A stretch of 26,357 nt of DNA from a virus (Duplodnaviria; Heunggongvirae; Uroviricota; Caudoviricetes): IMG/VR virus record IMGVR_UViG_2645727948_000026, positions 1 to 26,357 of that record, one strand, 5' to 3'. Position 1 is the first letter of the stretch. Every line of letters starts with the position of its first letter. Of this stretch, positions 1 to 10,235 are shown piece by piece. The position numbers and the translations under genes are program-made. The notes below the pieces were generated by a model. It did no database searches. It was not told the origin of the DNA and was given only the letters and a program-made list of their open reading frames with translations.

Positions 1-60
1 GGTATCCGTTCTGCTGAAGTGTCATGGCGTTGATTTTACGGTGACTCTTCGACAGTGAAA

Positions 61-83
61 AGAAAAAAGGCCGCAGAGCGGCC
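61..83 (-). terminator. Rho-independent terminator ending the C-int-cargo operon
   Basis: Hairpin GGCCGC-AGA-GCGGCC at 69-83; on the minus strand it is followed by a U-run (plus A6 at 63-68 then more A). Lies about 125 nt past the stop of the 209..646 CDS. Confidence 0.55.
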
Positions 84-208
84 ATAAACACAAGTAAAAA
101 TCAATAAGTTAGATAATTATCAAAGGCTTACAGACACACAAAAACACAGCCAACCACAACAAATAACAGGGATGTGGTCACTTTGTGGATCATATCGCCG
201 CCATAAAT

Positions 209-646
209 TTACTTAATAACAGTAACCACAGCCACAAGCACAGCCATCGCAGACAGGACAATACCTGTGAGTAACCAAGTCTGATTTGCAAATGATTTCT
301 GAAGTTCAGTACGATGCTCAGCCATCTCAACTTTCAGAGACTGGCGTAAATCAGCCATCTCAGACTTCAGGGATTGGCGCGATTCTGCCATCTCAAGCCT
401 CAACCCTTCGCGAATCTCCAGTACATCAGATTTGGTAGCAAAGGATTCGCTTCTTGTGGTGAGAGTAATCAGGTTGTTTTTGATTTCAGTCACATCACTT
501 TCCAGGCAACTGACCCGCCGTTCAAGGTCGTCATTCATGCCATCACCTCCATCATTACCACTTCCTGTTACTTGGTTGTTGGATACATTATAGGCATTCT
601 CTTTCTTTTTTCTGAACCGCGAAATATGTGCAACATTCTCTGCCAT
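209..646 (-). CDS. Tail-anchored coiled-coil membrane protein (145 aa), function unknown
   Basis: ORF track 209..649 (GTG); ATG at 646 overlaps the upstream stop (TGATG). Three 11-aa repeats (LEMAESRQSLK / SEMADLRQSLK / VEMAEHRTELQ) and one C-terminal hydrophobic helix WLLTGIVLSAMAVLVAVVTVI. Architecture resembles XhlA/DUF1640-type proteins (from memory). Confidence 0.6.
   Translation of the reverse strand: MAENVAHISRFRKKKENAYNVSNNQVTGSGNDGGDGMNDDLERRVSCLESDVTEIKNNLITLTTRSESFATKSDVLEIREGLRLEMAESRQSLKSEMADLRQSLKVEMAEHRTELQKSFANQTWLLTGIVLSAMAVLVAVVTVIK
319..417. repeat. Three tandem 33-bp repeats inside the 209..646 CDS
   Basis: cagccatctcaactttcagagactggcgtaaat / cagccatctcagacttcagggattggcgcgatt / ctgccatctcaagcctcaacccttcgcgaatct; they encode the 11-aa coiled-coil repeats. 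Confidence 0.7.
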
Positions 647-1008
647 CACTTCTCATCACCCTGCTTGCCTACCCAGTTCATAAAGGCCCGGGCCGAGTAA
701 CGATGAACAAACCCACATCTGTTACAGGTAAGTCGGAATTCATAGTTATGGATATTTTCCCGATCATGTCCCTCATATCCCGGATACCCAGTAAATGGAC
801 CGATATAATCAAGCATAACAAGAGTGCCTAAATCACACTCCTCAGCAGTTTTCGGCTCAGACCCCACCTCAACAATATTCGTCAAATACATGTACATATC
901 CGTATCGCCACACGACAAACATTTTTCATTCGTAGACGACTCATTGAGAAAACGCGCAAAATTATCGAGCGTTGCCATTCTTTTAAGTTCATCTATATCA
1001 AACTTCAC
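646..1008 (-). CDS. Cys4 zinc-ribbon protein (120 aa), function unknown
   Basis: ORF track 646..1008. GTG start 3 nt after the int stop, preceded by AGGAGG (plus 1018-1023, inside the int 3' end). CxxC pairs at C30/C33 and C95/C98. Confidence 0.6.
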   Translation of the reverse strand: MKFDIDELKRMATLDNFARFLNESSTNEKCLSCGDTDMYMYLTNIVEVGSEPKTAEECDLGTLVMLDYIGPFTGYPGYEGHDRENIHNYEFRLTCNRCGFVHRYSARAFMNWVGKQGDEK

Positions 1009-1010
1009 TC

Positions 1011-1988
1011 TTAAGCACCTCCTAGTGGATTAAACCTCACCGCATCCTGCAGGTAATCCGGCGCAAGATGGGCATAAATCATCGTTGTCTGAATCTTTGC
1101 GTGCCCCAGAATTTTCTGGAGCGTCAGAATATTGCCGCCGTTCATCATGAAATGACTGGCGAAGGTGTGGCGCAGCGCATGAACAGCCTGGCCGTCAGGA
1201 ACATCAGGTGCGACCGTTTTGATGACATCGCGAACCAATGAATAATCCAGCGTCGGAAACACCAGTTTCCCGCCCCGTTTTTTGATCTTTTCAAACAGGC
1301 TTTCAGAAATAGGAACGGTACGGTTTTTGCTGTTCTTCGTTTTTGAAAAAGTGATTCGACAATGAAGAACACGGCGCTGCTCCAGTGCCGCTACCTCGCC
1401 CCATTGCGCCCCGGTCGACAGAAGGATTTCGACAGCCAGCCGTTCATCGGGATTTTCAGCCAGTGCATCCAGCAACTGAACACATTCAGACTTACTCAGG
1501 TATCCCATTTCGCGCTCGTTAACCTTCATTCCTTTAAGGCCTTGAACGGGGTTATCGTTAAGAAAATGGCCGGATGAGATGAGTGCGGTAAACATCGCGC
1601 TTAACGCCCCAATCTCTCGATTTATGGTGCTGGGCTGTATCCCCTGCTCTATCCTGGACACACGTAGCTCGGTGAGCATCGTTGTATTAAGTTTATGCAC
1701 GCACGGGTCATCCATTGCCTCACTCAAGCGCAGCAATTTAAGGCGCGTGTTATGCCCTGACTTCATTAGCTGGCCGTGGTATTTCCACCACAAGTCAATA
1801 AGCACTGACAGCGGACGGCGATCAATAGAGTTTCCTTTCCACTCATTGTTATGCTGTTGCGCCAGCACCCACCGCTCATATAAAACTGCATCCGATTTCG
1901 TTTTAAATTTTTTACGAATGCGTTTGCCTTTACGCCCCTCCGGGCGTATGTCAAGAAGATACCCTCCCGGAATTGATTTTATGCTCAT
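1011..1988 (-). CDS. int: Tyrosine integrase, P2 Int-like
   Basis: ORF track 1011..2138; start trimmed to ATG at 1988 (MSIKSIPGGYLLDIRPEGRKGKRIRKKF) by recalled similarity to the P2 Int N-terminus. C-terminal HxxR...Y-type catalytic region (HALRHTF ... MIYAHL). Confidence 0.9.
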   Translation of the reverse strand: MSIKSIPGGYLLDIRPEGRKGKRIRKKFKTKSDAVLYERWVLAQQHNNEWKGNSIDRRPLSVLIDLWWKYHGQLMKSGHNTRLKLLRLSEAMDDPCVHKLNTTMLTELRVSRIEQGIQPSTINREIGALSAMFTALISSGHFLNDNPVQGLKGMKVNEREMGYLSKSECVQLLDALAENPDERLAVEILLSTGAQWGEVAALEQRRVLHCRITFSKTKNSKNRTVPISESLFEKIKKRGGKLVFPTLDYSLVRDVIKTVAPDVPDGQAVHALRHTFASHFMMNGGNILTLQKILGHAKIQTTMIYAHLAPDYLQDAVRFNPLGGA

Positions 1989-2037: not shown

Positions 2038-2346
2038 TTAGCCGGGCTGTGTGCCAGTCTTGCGGGGTTTTTGAGAAGGCGATGTGCTTTTTGGCCCATC
2101 AGGGGAGAGAGACGGACTGATCTGCCCAGCAGCCTCATTTGTTTTTCCCGTCATAAGCCAATTCATGTACTTAAAAAAGCGAGGGTGATTAACAATCTTG
2201 ATAAGCACTTCGCCCCCTATGTTTTCAATCCGCCCCGTTTCATAACGACGCAAAGTGCCGATAGGCACATCAATCAGGCCGCAAAATTCTTCGCGCGTTA
2301 AATCCTCTGATTCACGAATCACTCTAATTTTTTCACCGATAAGCAT
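2038..2346 (-). CDS. C: Immunity repressor, P2 C-like
   Basis: ORF track 2038..2382; start trimmed to M13 (MLIGEKIRVIRESEDLTREEF...). Helix-turn-helix region, sits directly upstream of int and divergent from the early operon, as in P2. Confidence 0.75.
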   Translation of the reverse strand: MLIGEKIRVIRESEDLTREEFCGLIDVPIGTLRRYETGRIENIGGEVLIKIVNHPRFFKYMNWLMTGKTNEAAGQISPSLSPDGPKSTSPSQKPRKTGTQPG

Positions 2347-8959: not shown

Positions 8960-9919
8960 ATGAAAATTTACATCGACGACGGCTCCACCAACATCAAGCT
9001 GGCATGGACTGAGAACGGCGAACGCCGCAACGCCATCAGCCCGAACAGCTTCAAGTCGGAATGGTCTGCGCCGTTCGGTGGCTCGCAGCCTGCTAACTAC
9101 ATGCTTGATGGCGTGCGCTATGGTTTTGATCCGGTCAGCGATCGCTTTGTCCAGACGACCGACACGCAATACCAGTACAGCGATGTGAATGTCATTGCCA
9201 TTCATCACGCGCTGGTCAAATCAGACATCACGCCACAGGAAGTGGATGTGGTTGTTACCCTGCCACTGAGCGAATATTTCGACACAAACGCACAGCCGGA
9301 CATGGCCAACATCAACCGCAAAAAAGCGAACGTCATGCGCCCGGTGGAGTACCAGAACGGCGAAGCATTCACTATCCGTAACGTACGGGTTATGCCTGAA
9401 TCCATTCCGGCTGGCTTTAAAGCACTGGCTGACATGAGTCCGTTTGAATCCCTGCTGATTGTGGATTTGGGCGGAACCACGCTGGATGTGGCAAAGGTTC
9501 AGGGGCAACTGGCAGGTATCAGCCAGGTGTTTTGCGATCCACACGTAGGCGTTTCTCTTATGGCCGATGCCGTACTGTCGGTGATGGCCACTAACGGTAT
9601 GCGCACCAGTCACCACATCGCCAATACCATTATCGAACATCGCCATAATGAAGCCTGGCTGCGCCAGCACATCCACAATGACGCGCATTACGCCAGCCTG
9701 ATGGCGGTTATTCGTGAAAAGGAAGAAACACTGAAACAACGCGTGATCCGCGCGCTGGCGGTTTTTTCGGGTTACGGGCGGGTGATGGTTGTCGGTGGCG
9801 GGGCGGAGATTGTGGCACCCGCTATCCGCGAAGCCTGCGGAGTTAATGCGACTTTCATCGCGGACGGGGTGCCACAGTTTGCTCTGGTTAATGGGCTGTA
9901 CGCAATGGACAAGGAGTAA
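8960..9919 (+). CDS. parM: Actin-like ATPase, ParM/StbA family
   Basis: ORF track. N-terminus MKIYIDDGSTNIKLAW and blocks VMPESIPAG, LLIVDLGGTTLDV, VMVVGGGAE match my recollection of plasmid R1 ParM and the actin-fold phosphate/adenosine motifs. Confidence 0.7.
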   Translation: MKIYIDDGSTNIKLAWTENGERRNAISPNSFKSEWSAPFGGSQPANYMLDGVRYGFDPVSDRFVQTTDTQYQYSDVNVIAIHHALVKSDITPQEVDVVVTLPLSEYFDTNAQPDMANINRKKANVMRPVEYQNGEAFTIRNVRVMPESIPAGFKALADMSPFESLLIVDLGGTTLDVAKVQGQLAGISQVFCDPHVGVSLMADAVLSVMATNGMRTSHHIANTIIEHRHNEAWLRQHIHNDAHYASLMAVIREKEETLKQRVIRALAVFSGYGRVMVVGGGAEIVAPAIREACGVNATFIADGVPQFALVNGLYAMDKE

Positions 9920-9923
9920 ACCA

Positions 9924-10235
9924 ATGACGACACCAACCAGACGGATAAGTTTCTATCTGAAGCCCGCCGCCGTCAAGAACGAAGGAGAAGCATGCGCCTG
10001 GCTGGACAGCCTTACACCAGAAGCCCGCAAAAGCGGCCAACGCGTGGCTTTTCTGGCCGGGCTGGCACTTCTGAAGACGAATCCGGCAGAGGCTTACCGA
10101 CTGGCCGCATGGGCTGATGATGAGATGTTACCTGTGACACAAATCAGCTCAAAAAAGTTTGAAGCACAGTCTGCACCAGTGGCTAAGATAACCAGCCAGA
10201 TGGCTGGGAATATCCGGGCGTTATTTCCTGAGTAA
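9924..10235 (+). CDS. parR: ParR-like small DNA-binding adaptor (103 aa)
   Basis: ORF track 9789..10235 trimmed to ATG 9924 (GGAG RBS, 4 nt after the parM stop). N-terminus RRISFYLKP...LDSL...AFLAGLAL resembles R1 ParR as recalled. Confidence 0.55.
   Translation: MTTPTRRISFYLKPAAVKNEGEACAWLDSLTPEARKSGQRVAFLAGLALLKTNPAEAYRLAAWADDEMLPVTQISSKKFEAQSAPVAKITSQMAGNIRALFPE

What the first reader, a model, noticed from the sequence alone, without database searches (positions are those of the whole stretch)
209..1008. Two-gene cargo module translationally welded onto the 3' end of int: Cys4 zinc-ribbon protein plus tail-anchored coiled-coil membrane protein
In P2 the attachment site follows int directly. 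Here two extra genes sit between int and the operon terminator (61-83). The first starts at a GTG 3 nt past the int stop with an AGGAGG inside int; the second overlaps it by TGATG. Both should therefore be made from the C/int transcript in the lysogen, which is the expression pattern of prophage superinfection-exclusion or abortive-infection genes. The pair (CxxC...CxxC protein of 120 aa; 145-aa coiled coil with one C-terminal TM helix) matches no defence system I recognise. The region also looks more AT-rich than the phage core by eye.
Basis: partly seen in the sequence, partly recalled or inferred. Interest (0 to 1): 0.75.

Follow-up and report, generated by a model that had tools for sequence, protein, structure and literature searches.

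The report
Uncharacterised two-gene prophage cargo module
Between the integrase gene and the attachment site of a P2-like E. coli prophage sits a real, conserved but uncharacterised gene pair (a small zinc-binding protein plus a membrane-anchored coiled-coil protein) that moves as a unit between variable slots of temperate phages where anti-phage genes are often found; it is a reasonable but untested candidate for a phage-exclusion system.

Summary
Two minus-strand genes, orfA (646-1008, Cys4, 120 aa) and orfB (209-646/649, coiled coil plus C-terminal TM helix), lie directly after int with the described start contexts. They are AT-richer than the phage (43.9% vs 52.8% GC).

One correction: the "operon terminator" at 61-83 is the host ihfA terminator. 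It is also the 25-bp att core (59-83), repeated at the other prophage end.

The pair is an autonomous mobile module. A is followed by an overlapping B-type gene in 13 of 14 additional loci and in every context examined earlier. These contexts are after int, between repressor and int, in the P2 S/V tail-gene slot, and between tail chaperone and tape measure in a siphovirus-like prophage. The int-att slot is polymorphic: 306 E. coli genomes carry this attL, 86 with the pair and 158 with an unrelated gene.

No homologue with a known function turned up by sequence or fold, and nothing matched PADLOC.

New here: all 23 orfB genes examined keep an in-frame ATG or GTG with an upstream GGAGG/GGGGG. 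This suggests a short isoform.

Best reading (about 45%): a lysogen-expressed exclusion or abortive-infection pair organised like RexAB. The function is untested.

The parts
59..83 (.). 25-bp att core AAAGAAAAAAGGCCGCAGAGCGGCC. It is the host ihfA intrinsic terminator: hairpin at 69-83 and, read on the minus strand, a T-run at 59-68.
   Evidence: An identical 25-mer sits at the other prophage end next to ihfA, and in the empty K-12 site 17 nt after the ihfA stop (loci). Window 1-83 is present in 5426/5426 E. coli genomes. The terminator scan finds it.
173..192 (.). Putative P' arm Int-binding direct repeats, TGTGGTCA ctt TGTGGATCA. They lie at the inner edge of the conserved attP arm (84 to about 193).
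   Evidence: They resemble the annotated P2 arm sites (TGTGGACA repeats). The arm is conserved up to about 193 in prophages that carry different cargo.
209..649 (-). orfB: a tail-anchored coiled-coil membrane protein, 145 aa from the ATG at 646 or 146 aa from the GTG at 649. In order it has an N-terminal motif, a Gly/Asp linker, a helical rod with 11-aa repeats, and a C-terminal TM helix.
   Evidence: ORF list, RefSeq WP_000829983.1, phrog_9415, homologues, architecture in diverse partners, AF2 model.
215..271 (-). The single C-terminal transmembrane helix of orfB (residues 127-145, LTGIVLSAMAVLVAVVTVI), followed only by Lys.
   Evidence: Kyte-Doolittle 19-residue mean of 2.65. It is helical in the AF2 model. 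Every B partner has such a terminal helix.
318..396 (-). 33-nt tandem repeat (2.4 copies) encoding the 11-residue repeats EMAESRQSLKS / EMADLRQSLKV / EMAEHRTELQK. Repeat number varies between homologues.
   Evidence: Tandem Repeats Finder. Alignment gaps of one or two repeats.
536..550 (-). Probable internal translation start of orfB: GGAGGT (550-545), then 6 nt, then ATG (538-536). It would give a 109-aa short isoform lacking the N-terminal motif and linker.
   Evidence: All 23 B genes examined have ATG (21) or GTG (2) here, with GGAGG or GGGGG upstream. Predicted anti-SD duplex energy is -9.3 to -12.1 kcal/mol. Many gene callers annotate the 109-aa form.
587..616 (-). Sigma-70 promoter-like site TTCAGA-18-TATAAT inside the orfB 5' coding region, 48 nt upstream of the internal ATG.
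   Evidence: Consensus scan, 10/12. The number of sites in the region is not above chance. The site is conserved in the E. coli/Salmonella clade, and the TATAAT persists in L045 where the encoded peptide is scrambled.
646..1008 (-). orfA: a soluble 120-aa Cys4 zinc-ribbon protein. It has an N-terminal helical motif (consensus VTPELFAEFL). Cys codons lie at 921-919, 912-910, 726-724 and 717-715.
   Evidence: ORF list, RefSeq WP_021543496.1, phrog_4293, family alignment, AF2 model with pLDDT 75 and pTM 0.68.
1017..1023 (-). Shine-Dalgarno sequence AGGAGGT for orfA, embedded in the last codons of int.
   Evidence: Read directly from the sequence.
1011..1988 (-). P2-type tyrosine integrase.
   Evidence: Pfam Int_N 1.5e-28 and Phage_integrase 8.2e-18. 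RefSeq annotation.
2038..2346 (-). C-type HTH immunity repressor, first gene of the leftward lysogeny operon.
   Evidence: Pfam HTH_3 and phrog_147. RefSeq annotation.

Best explanation
orfA-orfB is a self-contained accessory (moron) module of temperate Enterobacterales phages that moves horizontally. Here it sits in the polymorphic slot between int and the P' arm of attP, in a P2-like prophage integrated in the ihfA terminator.

Shown:
- The two genes always travel together in the order A then B, with overlapping or abutting stop and start codons.
- They occupy at least four different variable slots in different phage backbones.
- orfA is a cytoplasmic Cys4 zinc-ribbon protein.
- orfB is a tail-anchored inner-membrane protein. 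Nearly all of its mass is cytoplasmic: a short conserved N-terminal motif, a Gly-rich linker, and a rod of variable length.
- Every orfB examined keeps an in-frame internal start signal.

Inferred:
- In the lysogen the pair is transcribed from Pc with C and int. Translation is coupled from int to A to B-long, and the transcript ends at the att-core/ihfA terminator.
- A shorter B isoform is made from the internal SD and ATG. In this clade a promoter-like site inside orfB may drive it.
- A docks on the N-terminal motif of B-long at the inner face of the membrane.
- The complex acts as a phage-exclusion or abortive-infection device. A would be the sensor or regulator, and oligomerising B the membrane effector. 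The long:short isoform ratio would set the threshold, as RexA:RexB or SieB:Esc do.
For: Anatomy and coupling.

Obligate pairing:
- All 86 E. coli genomes that carry the region carry both genes, in single copy.
- The same IMG/VR contigs hold both genes.
- A homologues at only 20-33% identity are still followed by a B-type gene.
- 13 of 14 further IMG/VR loci show the same arrangement.

Mobility between slots:
- After int, at two different att sites.
- Between repressor and int.
- In the P2 S/V tail slot.
- Between tail chaperone and tape measure.
- Inside a circular 32-kb Klebsiella episome.

Polymorphic slot: 306 genomes have this attL. 86 carry the pair, 158 carry an unrelated 131-aa gene, and another pair also occurs.

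Link to defence by location:
- The int-att, int-primase and tail-gene regions of P2-like phages, and the cI-int region of K139-like phages, are described as defence hotspots (PMC13586616; PMC9122126).
- An AbiJ-like gene shares the slot in Yersinia.
- In the same study, 6 of 8 randomly chosen unknown P4 hotspot loci gave protection.

Foreign composition.

Internal start: ATG or GTG with GGAGG/GGGGG upstream in all 23 B genes examined. A promoter-like site is conserved in this clade.

The N-terminal part of B is under purifying selection, so the long form is made too (pN/pS 0.34-0.47).
Against: - There is no functional evidence of any kind.
- Hotspot location is circumstantial. The other occupants of this slot are also unknown, and such slots also hold non-defence morons. 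In this window, ParM/StbB partition genes sit in the gpA-portal slot.
- A protein with only about one periplasmic residue is poorly placed to block DNA entry from outside.
- The promoter-like site is one of three hits in a region where shuffles give 4.2, and it is absent from distant homologues.
- Gly codons alone can create GGNGG, so part of the SD signal may follow from the linker sequence.
- The proposed A-B contact was not tested.
Confidence: 0.45

Rival explanations
1. Lysogenic-conversion module that changes host physiology rather than excluding phages. The tail-anchored rod would recruit the zinc-ribbon protein, or a host partner such as ribosomes, flagellar export or the divisome, to the inner membrane. 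This would resemble the host tail-anchored proteins ElaB/YqjD/YgaM or Flk.
For: orfB has the architecture of a tail-anchored cytoplasmic rod. It shows sub-threshold similarity to coiled-coil-plus-anchor families: CCDC90-like/DUF1640 in 4 of 12 members, with a best E of 0.0017, and TIGR04211 SH3_and_anchor at 9.4e-5. In Citrobacter prophages a protein related to the tail-anchored Flk regulator sits immediately upstream of the pair. The same hot slots also hold non-defence cargo.
Against: No above-threshold homology to any of these families. The module is confined to prophage variable slots and is not found in host cores. Its patchy presence, 86 of 306 otherwise similar prophages, fits arms-race cargo better than a general fitness factor, although it does not exclude one.
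Confidence: 0.2
2. Addiction or toxin-antitoxin-like module that stabilises the prophage. orfB, particularly its short isoform, would be a membrane-damaging toxin, and orfA or B-long would neutralise it.
For: It is a small two-gene operon with translational coupling and a single-TM product. The conserved internal start could give toxin and antidote forms from one gene. Prophage ends often carry such modules: the related MS8345 prophage has a Hok/Gef gene at its other end.
Against: At 94-189 aa with a long soluble rod, orfB is unlike known small membrane toxins. Neither protein matches a TA family. The order here is soluble partner first and membrane partner second, coupled 1:1. That order is also what sensor-effector defence pairs show, so the two readings overlap.
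Confidence: 0.15
3. The pair serves the phage's own life cycle, for example by modulating integration or excision, the lysis-lysogeny decision, or lysis timing. This would explain why it is welded to int.
For: It is tightly coupled to int in most P2-like contexts. It sits inside the C-int operon in others. Dual-start membrane proteins are classic lysis-timing devices (holin/antiholin; established knowledge).
Against: The pair also occurs far from any int, in tail-gene slots of two different phage types. 220 of the 306 E. coli prophages with the same attL lack it, and int is near-identical in the one pair-less prophage compared (phmmer 2.3e-219). It is therefore dispensable for integration and for the phage cycle. 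P2 itself has nothing at this position.
Confidence: 0.1
4. The ORFs are not functional genes: chance ORFs or decaying remnants.
For: There are no annotated functions and no domain hits.
Against: Both are under purifying selection. The four Cys are invariant, and the architecture is conserved down to about 20% identity across several genera of Enterobacterales. Both have PHROG families.
Confidence: 0.02

Closest known systems
Lambda RexA-RexB exclusion system
   Same: It is a two-gene unit carried by a temperate phage and placed in the lysogeny operon, so it is made in the lysogen. One partner is soluble and one is in the inner membrane. Here the membrane partner may have an extra promoter of its own. 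In lambda, rexB likewise has its own promoter and the RexA:RexB ratio matters (established knowledge, not tested here).
   Different: There is no sequence similarity: no Pfam RexA or RexB hit. RexB is a polytopic channel-like protein, whereas orfB has one C-terminal TM helix and a long cytoplasmic rod. orfA is a 120-aa zinc ribbon, much smaller than RexA.
P22/lambda SieB with its in-frame truncated product Esc
   Same: It is a prophage gene for a membrane-associated abortive-exclusion protein. An in-frame internal start gives a shorter polypeptide that modulates the full-length one (established knowledge). Every orfB gene examined keeps an in-frame ATG or GTG with a strong upstream SD.
   Different: There is no homology. 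SieB is a single gene, not a pair. The internal start of orfB is inferred from sequence only.
Cargo of the described P2-like defence hotspots (tin/old locus, Z/fun and tail-gene locus, int-att, cI-int)
   Same: It shares the same kinds of positions, the AT-rich foreign composition, the presence/absence polymorphism between otherwise similar prophages, and the exchange between slots.
   Different: The proteins match none of the systems catalogued in PADLOC-DB 2.0.0. No paper in the held library mentions their accessions or PHROG families.
Host tail-anchored inner-membrane proteins (ElaB/YqjD/YgaM DUF883, DUF1640/CCDC90-like, YgiM-type SH3_and_anchor)
   Same: It shares the overall topology: a cytoplasmic helical rod ending in a single C-terminal TM helix. 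Profile hits are weak and below threshold.
   Different: All hits fall below the family cut-offs. orfB has its own N-terminal motif and Gly linker, an obligatory zinc-ribbon partner, and a phage-only distribution.
HK97 gp15-type morons between the tail chaperone and tape-measure genes
   Same: In Pseudocitrobacter prophages the pair sits at that position, among lipoprotein and KilA-N morons. That HK97 gp15 lies at this position and excludes superinfecting phage is recalled knowledge, not checked here.
   Different: There is no sequence relationship, and the topology and gene number differ.

Membership tests
Cargo of the P2-like int-att variable or defence slot | Lies inside the phage genome, between the int stop codon and the attP arm and core | tested here: met
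   The core at 59-83 is duplicated at the other prophage end. The arm repeats at 173-192 resemble P2 Int arm sites. The pair lies at 209-1008. The same arrangement is seen in a circular 32-kb Klebsiella episome.
Cargo of the P2-like int-att variable or defence slot | Presence/absence and replacement polymorphism among prophages with the same int and att | tested here: met
   306 genomes have this attL. 86 carry the pair, 158 carry an unrelated 131-aa gene, and another pair of 257 and 125 aa also occurs.
Known anti-phage defence systems (PADLOC-DB 2.0.0) | Significant match of either protein to a defence-protein model | tested here: not met
   The best E-values are 0.032 and 0.0074, and both look spurious. 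Systems described after 2023 could not be screened by sequence.
Anti-phage defence system (functional definition) | Reduces phage plating or aborts infection when present | not testable with these tools
   This needs experiments. Only location and architecture support it.
Lambda RexAB | Homology to RexA or RexB, with a polytopic RexB | tested here: not met
   No Pfam hit. orfB has a single C-terminal TM helix.
Lambda RexAB | Co-transcription with the repressor in the lysogen, plus a separate promoter for the membrane partner | tested here: inconclusive
   The pair is on the same strand as C and int with no convincing intervening terminator. A promoter-like site at 616-587 is conserved in the clade. 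There are no transcript data.
SieB/Esc-type dual-product exclusion gene | In-frame internal initiation site giving a truncated product | tested here: inconclusive
   The sequence signal is conserved in all 23 genes, including two ATG-to-GTG changes. Translation from this site was not observed.
SieB/Esc-type dual-product exclusion gene | Sequence homology to SieB | tested here: not met
   No Pfam hit at E up to 1.
DUF1640/CCDC90-like and DUF883 tail-anchored proteins | Profile match above the family gathering threshold | tested here: not met
   CCDC90-like scores 10.9 bits against a cut-off of 33.5. 4 of 12 members hit it, with a best E of 0.0017. There is no DUF883 hit.
Zinc-ribbon proteins (generic fold class) | Two CxxC knuckles on beta-hairpins, conserved across the family | tested here: met
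   The four Cys are invariant. The second CxxC lies between strands 89-95 and 101-105 of the AF2 model. Weak TFIIS/Rpb9-type matches are the only recurring named fold hits. Metal binding itself was not tested.

The most novel reading that the evidence does not exclude
The pair is a new two-component, membrane-acting abortive-infection or exclusion system with no relatives among known defence proteins. One gene (orfB) would encode both the effector and its modulator as long and short isoforms from a conserved internal start. The zinc-ribbon protein would dock on the N-terminal peptide of the long isoform as the phage sensor. This would be a compact prophage device combining RexAB-like and SieB/Esc-like logic, spread across several hot slots of temperate Enterobacterales phages.
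Probability: 0.3. Interest if true: 0.65.

Novelty: new variant of a known kind. Interest (0 to 1): 0.48.

Why it matters
If the pair protects lysogens, it would add a defence system built from two very small proteins with no known domains. It carries an unusual built-in regulatory feature, two isoforms of a tail-anchored effector, which can be tested directly with a few point mutants.

It would also give experimental backing to the int-att slot of P2-like phages as a genuine defence locus. That slot is so far supported only by annotation statistics (PMC13586616).

Whatever the function, the work fixes the anatomy of this prophage end. The att core is the ihfA terminator, and the cargo is inserted precisely between int and the P' arm. 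This explains how cargo can be co-expressed with int without read-through into btuC.

The caveat is that unknown gene pairs in prophage hot slots are common. Finding another candidate is not in itself surprising.

Tried and rejected
- Domain searches (Pfam, NCBIfam, PADLOC) on both proteins and on family members gave nothing above threshold.
- A PDB sequence-profile search with the orfA family found nothing.
- The orfB model is a disordered N-terminus plus long helices, as expected, so no fold search was run on it.
- Phage-genome searches: orfB has no tblastn hit in 50,697 records. orfA has one distant hit.
- The first genome-contig scan, with the broad alignment, failed for lack of a conserved stretch. 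A narrower alignment gave only 5 loci.
- Literature searches for the RefSeq accessions, the PHROG ids and architecture keywords found nothing on this pair, including the DefensePredictor supplements. The supplements of PMC13586616 are not held.
- Considered and rejected: that the pair is an integrase accessory, because it occurs without int and is absent from 220 of 306 E. coli prophages with the same attL.
- Considered and rejected: that the 109-aa annotation means the N-terminal 37 codons are non-coding. The frame is always open from the orfA stop, and pN/pS is 0.34-0.47 except in one clade.
- Considered and rejected: that the hairpin at 61-83 is phage-private.
- A call using coordinates from a related genome failed because the window is a different mosaic beyond about 1.1 kb.
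Full report
**1. What is at 209-1008**

The window begins 1 nt upstream of the host btuC start codon. Its left end carries, on the minus strand:

| Feature | Coordinates |
|---|---|
| C-type HTH repressor | 2038-2346 |
| P2-type tyrosine integrase | 1011-1988 |
| orfA, 120 codons | 646-1008 |
| orfB, 145/146 codons | 209-646/649 |

- int ends CCA CTA GGA GGT GCT TAA. AGGAGGT is therefore part of int.
- The orfA GTG follows the stop after two bases.
- orfA ends ...GAG AAG TGA, and this overlaps the orfB ATG as TGATG. An alternative GTG start overlaps by 4 nt.
- orfA has C30xxC33 and C95xxC98.
- orfB has one hydrophobic helix at its extreme C-terminus, followed by a single Lys.
- The pair has 43.9% GC, against 49.4% for int and 52.8% for the window. 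It falls in the lowest 5% of 800-nt windows.

Both ORFs are real genes. RefSeq annotates them (WP_021543496.1 and WP_000829983.1). They match PHROG families of unknown function (phrog_4293 at 2.7e-29 and phrog_9415 at 1.3e-42). They evolve under purifying selection.

**2. The terminator and the attachment site**

- Window 1-83 is found in all 5426 complete E. coli genomes, whereas only 86 hold 1-1100.
- In K-12 the hairpin GGCCGCAGAGCGGCC lies 17 nt after the ihfA stop, between ihfA and btuC.
- In a lysogen with an identical left end (MS8345), the 25-mer AAAGAAAAAAGGCCGCAGAGCGGCC (window 59-83) recurs at the other prophage end, next to ihfA.

So 59-83 is the att core, and it is also the ihfA intrinsic terminator. 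Read on the minus strand, the hairpin and its T-run lie entirely within the core. The int-orfA-orfB transcript therefore meets a terminator in attL and in attP alike. The reconstituted attR still terminates ihfA.

The stretch from 84 to about 193 is conserved in prophages with different cargo. It ends with TGTGGTCA-ctt-TGTGGATCA (173-192). This resembles the annotated P2 Int arm sites.

In P2 itself the core lies 80 nt past the int stop and the P' arm is inside int. Here the cargo is inserted exactly between the int stop and the P' arm.

**3. The slot is polymorphic**

Of 5426 complete E. coli genomes, 306 carry this attL. Of those:

- 86 have the A-B pair, always both genes and in single copy.
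- 158 have an unrelated 131-aa gene.
- Others have different cargo, for example an overlapping pair of 257 and 125 aa.

None of these alternatives has a Pfam or PADLOC match.

A 2026 survey of thousands of P2-like prophages reports the int-att interval as a minor defence hotspot holding 3% of P2 systems. The int-primase interval holds 8% and the tail-gene region after gpL holds 16% (PMC13586616). Rousset et al. 2022 describe a cI-int hotspot in K139-like P2 relatives (PMC9122126).

**4. The pair is an autonomous, mobile unit**

Close relatives always carry both genes on the same contigs. The orfA family is small and confined to Enterobacterales:

- 34 clusters in the 5.8-billion-protein search.
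- 35 representatives among 1.84 billion proteins.
- Genera include Citrobacter, Lelliottia, Raoultella, Yersinia, Pectobacterium, Hafnia and Sodalis.

The four Cys and W112 are invariant, and the family shares an N-terminal helix motif, VTPELFAEFL.

Wherever a homologue was placed in its genomic context, a B-type gene follows and overlaps it:

| Context |
|---|
| After int, at the ihfA/btuC site and at a yhbY/rlmE site |
| After int in Yersinia, followed by a 288-aa gene and an AbiJ-like gene |
| Inside a circular 32-kb Klebsiella P2-like episome |
| Between repressor and int, in Citrobacter and E. coli |
| Between gpV and gpS of a Pectobacterium P2-like phage, beside an ORF6N gene |
| Between tail chaperone and tape measure of a siphovirus-like Pseudocitrobacter prophage, among KilA-N and lipoprotein morons |

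In 14 further IMG/VR loci found with a distant orfA profile, 13 have the overlapping B-type partner. The exception is a truncated orfA. The association with int is therefore frequent but not defining.

**5. The proteins**

The AlphaFold2 model of orfA has pLDDT 75 and pTM 0.68. It shows two N-terminal helices, a small sheet carrying the two CxxC knuckles, and a C-terminal helix. It has no meaningful structural neighbour:

- Foldseek against PDB gives a best E of 0.23.
- BFVD gives one unnamed 87-aa protein at E 6e-3, then generic TFIIS-type ribbons.

The PDB sequence profile and NCBIfam give nothing.

Partners of orfB range from 94 to 189 aa and share one plan:

- A short N-terminal motif, consensus (D/E)N(V/I)xx(V/I)xxFP(Q/R). 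In the window this reads ENVAHISRFR.
- A Gly/Asp-rich linker.
- A helical rod beginning M-x-x-LE(R/K)RV-x-x-LE-x-DV. It carries a variable number of 11-residue repeats, encoded here by a 33-nt tandem repeat at 318-396.
- A terminal TM helix.

The model shows residues 1-35 disordered, then helices 36-69 and 72-144. Only sub-threshold hits to coiled-coil-plus-anchor families appear. No PADLOC model matches either protein.

**6. A conserved internal start in orfB (new observation)**

- The residue that opens the rod (M38 from the GTG start; window 538-536) is ATG in 21 of the 23 B genes examined and GTG in the other two. All are start-capable codons.
- It is always preceded, a few nucleotides upstream (6 nt in the window), by GGAGG or GGGGG formed by the Gly codons. 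Predicted anti-SD duplex energy is -9.3 to -12.1 kcal/mol.
- Many gene callers already annotate the 109-aa form.
- The upstream 37 codons are nevertheless always open from the orfA stop. They are under purifying selection, with pN/pS 0.34-0.47. The exception is one E. coli clade (L045), where the peptide is scrambled and pN/pS is 0.80.
- In the E. coli/Salmonella clade, a promoter-like TTCAGA-18-TATAAT (616-587) lies 48 nt upstream of the internal ATG. Its TATAAT persists even in the scrambled clade. It is absent from distant homologues, and the number of such sites in the region is not above chance.

My reading is that both a long and a short isoform are made. This rests on sequence only.

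**7. How it most likely works**

Shown:
- Gene order and coupling.
- Pairing.
- Mobility between hot slots.
- Topology class.
- The conserved start signal.

Inferred:
- Transcription from Pc through C and int in the lysogen.
- Coupled translation from int to A to B-long.
- An A:B-long complex on the cytoplasmic face of the inner membrane.
- A phage-triggered action of oligomerised B on the membrane, tuned by the long:short ratio.

The organisational analogues are lambda RexAB and SieB/Esc. RexAB pairs a soluble with a membrane partner in the lysogeny operon, and the membrane partner has its own promoter. SieB/Esc is an in-frame truncated modulator. That comparison rests on established knowledge of those systems. 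Membership of either family is excluded by the lack of homology and by the different topology.

I put about 45% on an exclusion or abortive-infection role. The other readings are about 20% for non-defence lysogenic conversion, about 15% for an addiction or TA-like role, about 10% for a phage life-cycle role, and about 2% for non-genes.

Against the defence reading:
- There are no functional data.
- The other occupants of the slot are also unknown.
- Hot slots also carry non-defence cargo. In this window, ParM/StbB sits in the gpA-portal slot.

**8. Novelty and verdict**

No paper in the held library mentions these proteins or their PHROG families. Neither gene appears in 50,697 deposited phage genomes, apart from one distant orfA homologue.

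The kind of thing is known: lysogen-expressed accessory cargo in a P2 hot slot, possibly a sensor plus a membrane effector. The proteins and the dual-start design are not. Unknown gene pairs in such slots are common. [quoted passage not shown]

This is therefore a solid, well-delimited candidate rather than a surprise. Interest is 0.48, and the novelty class is "new variant of a known kind".

Noticed in passing
window 59-83; L005 888-912; L003 1559-1583: The prophage att core (25 bp) is the intrinsic terminator of the host ihfA gene. Both attL and attR keep a complete hairpin plus T-run. ihfA therefore stays terminated, and the int operon is insulated from btuC. 306 of 5426 complete E. coli genomes have a prophage at this site.
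   Followed up: yes
L002 3190-3585; L064 2620-3760: Two other cargos occupy the same int-att slot. One is a 131-aa gene (WP_000416304.1), found in 158 genomes including O26/O111 strains. The other is an overlapping pair of 257 and 125 aa that also overlaps int. None has a Pfam or PADLOC match.
   Followed up: partly
window 587-616 (minus strand): A promoter-like TTCAGA-18-TATAAT lies inside the orfB coding region, 48 nt upstream of the internal ATG. It is conserved in the E. coli/Salmonella clade. The TATAAT persists (as TGTTATAAT) in L045, where the encoded N-terminal peptide is scrambled.
   Followed up: partly
L045-L047, 3893-4297: In one common E. coli clade the N-terminal 36 codons of orfB are unrelated in sequence (pN/pS 0.80). 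The Gly linker, SD and internal ATG are kept. This clade may make only the short isoform.
   Followed up: partly
window 8960-10235: ParM (StbA_N plus ParM C-terminal domain, E 1e-80) and a StbB-type plasmid-stability protein sit in the gpA-portal hot slot of this P2-like prophage. A related Klebsiella element is deposited as a 32-kb 'plasmid' (CP052639). This raises the possibility of an episomal, phage-plasmid-like state.
   Followed up: no
window 1-124 (minus strand): There is a sub-threshold Rfam match to the enterobacterial sRNA STnc540 (23.3 bits against a gathering score of 38; E 0.033). It spans the btuC-upstream/ihfA-terminator DNA and runs into the prophage arm. If a host sRNA lies here, integration would interrupt it.
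   Followed up: no
L059 5356-7221: In Yersinia the slot after int-A-B also holds a 288-aa unknown gene and an AbiJ-like protein (AbiJ_NTD4, DUF7014, Abi_C). Together they form a small defence-island-like cluster at the prophage end.
   Followed up: partly
L049 3002-3631: In Citrobacter prophages the pair is preceded, within the repressor-int operon, by a 209-aa protein related to the N-terminal part of the flagellar regulator Flk (NCBIfam PRK10715, 1.8e-14, below cut-off). Flk is itself a tail-anchored membrane protein.
   Followed up: no
L051 3896-4426; L061 3003-3635: In both tail-gene contexts the pair lies next to a KilA-N or ORF6N (antirepressor-type DNA-binding) gene. This may be coincidence or may indicate a larger moron cluster.
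   Followed up: no
L005 481-621 (outside the window, other prophage end in strain MS8345): A Hok/Gef-family toxin gene lies between ogr and attR of the related prophage. Both ends of this element therefore carry small membrane-protein cargo.
   Followed up: no
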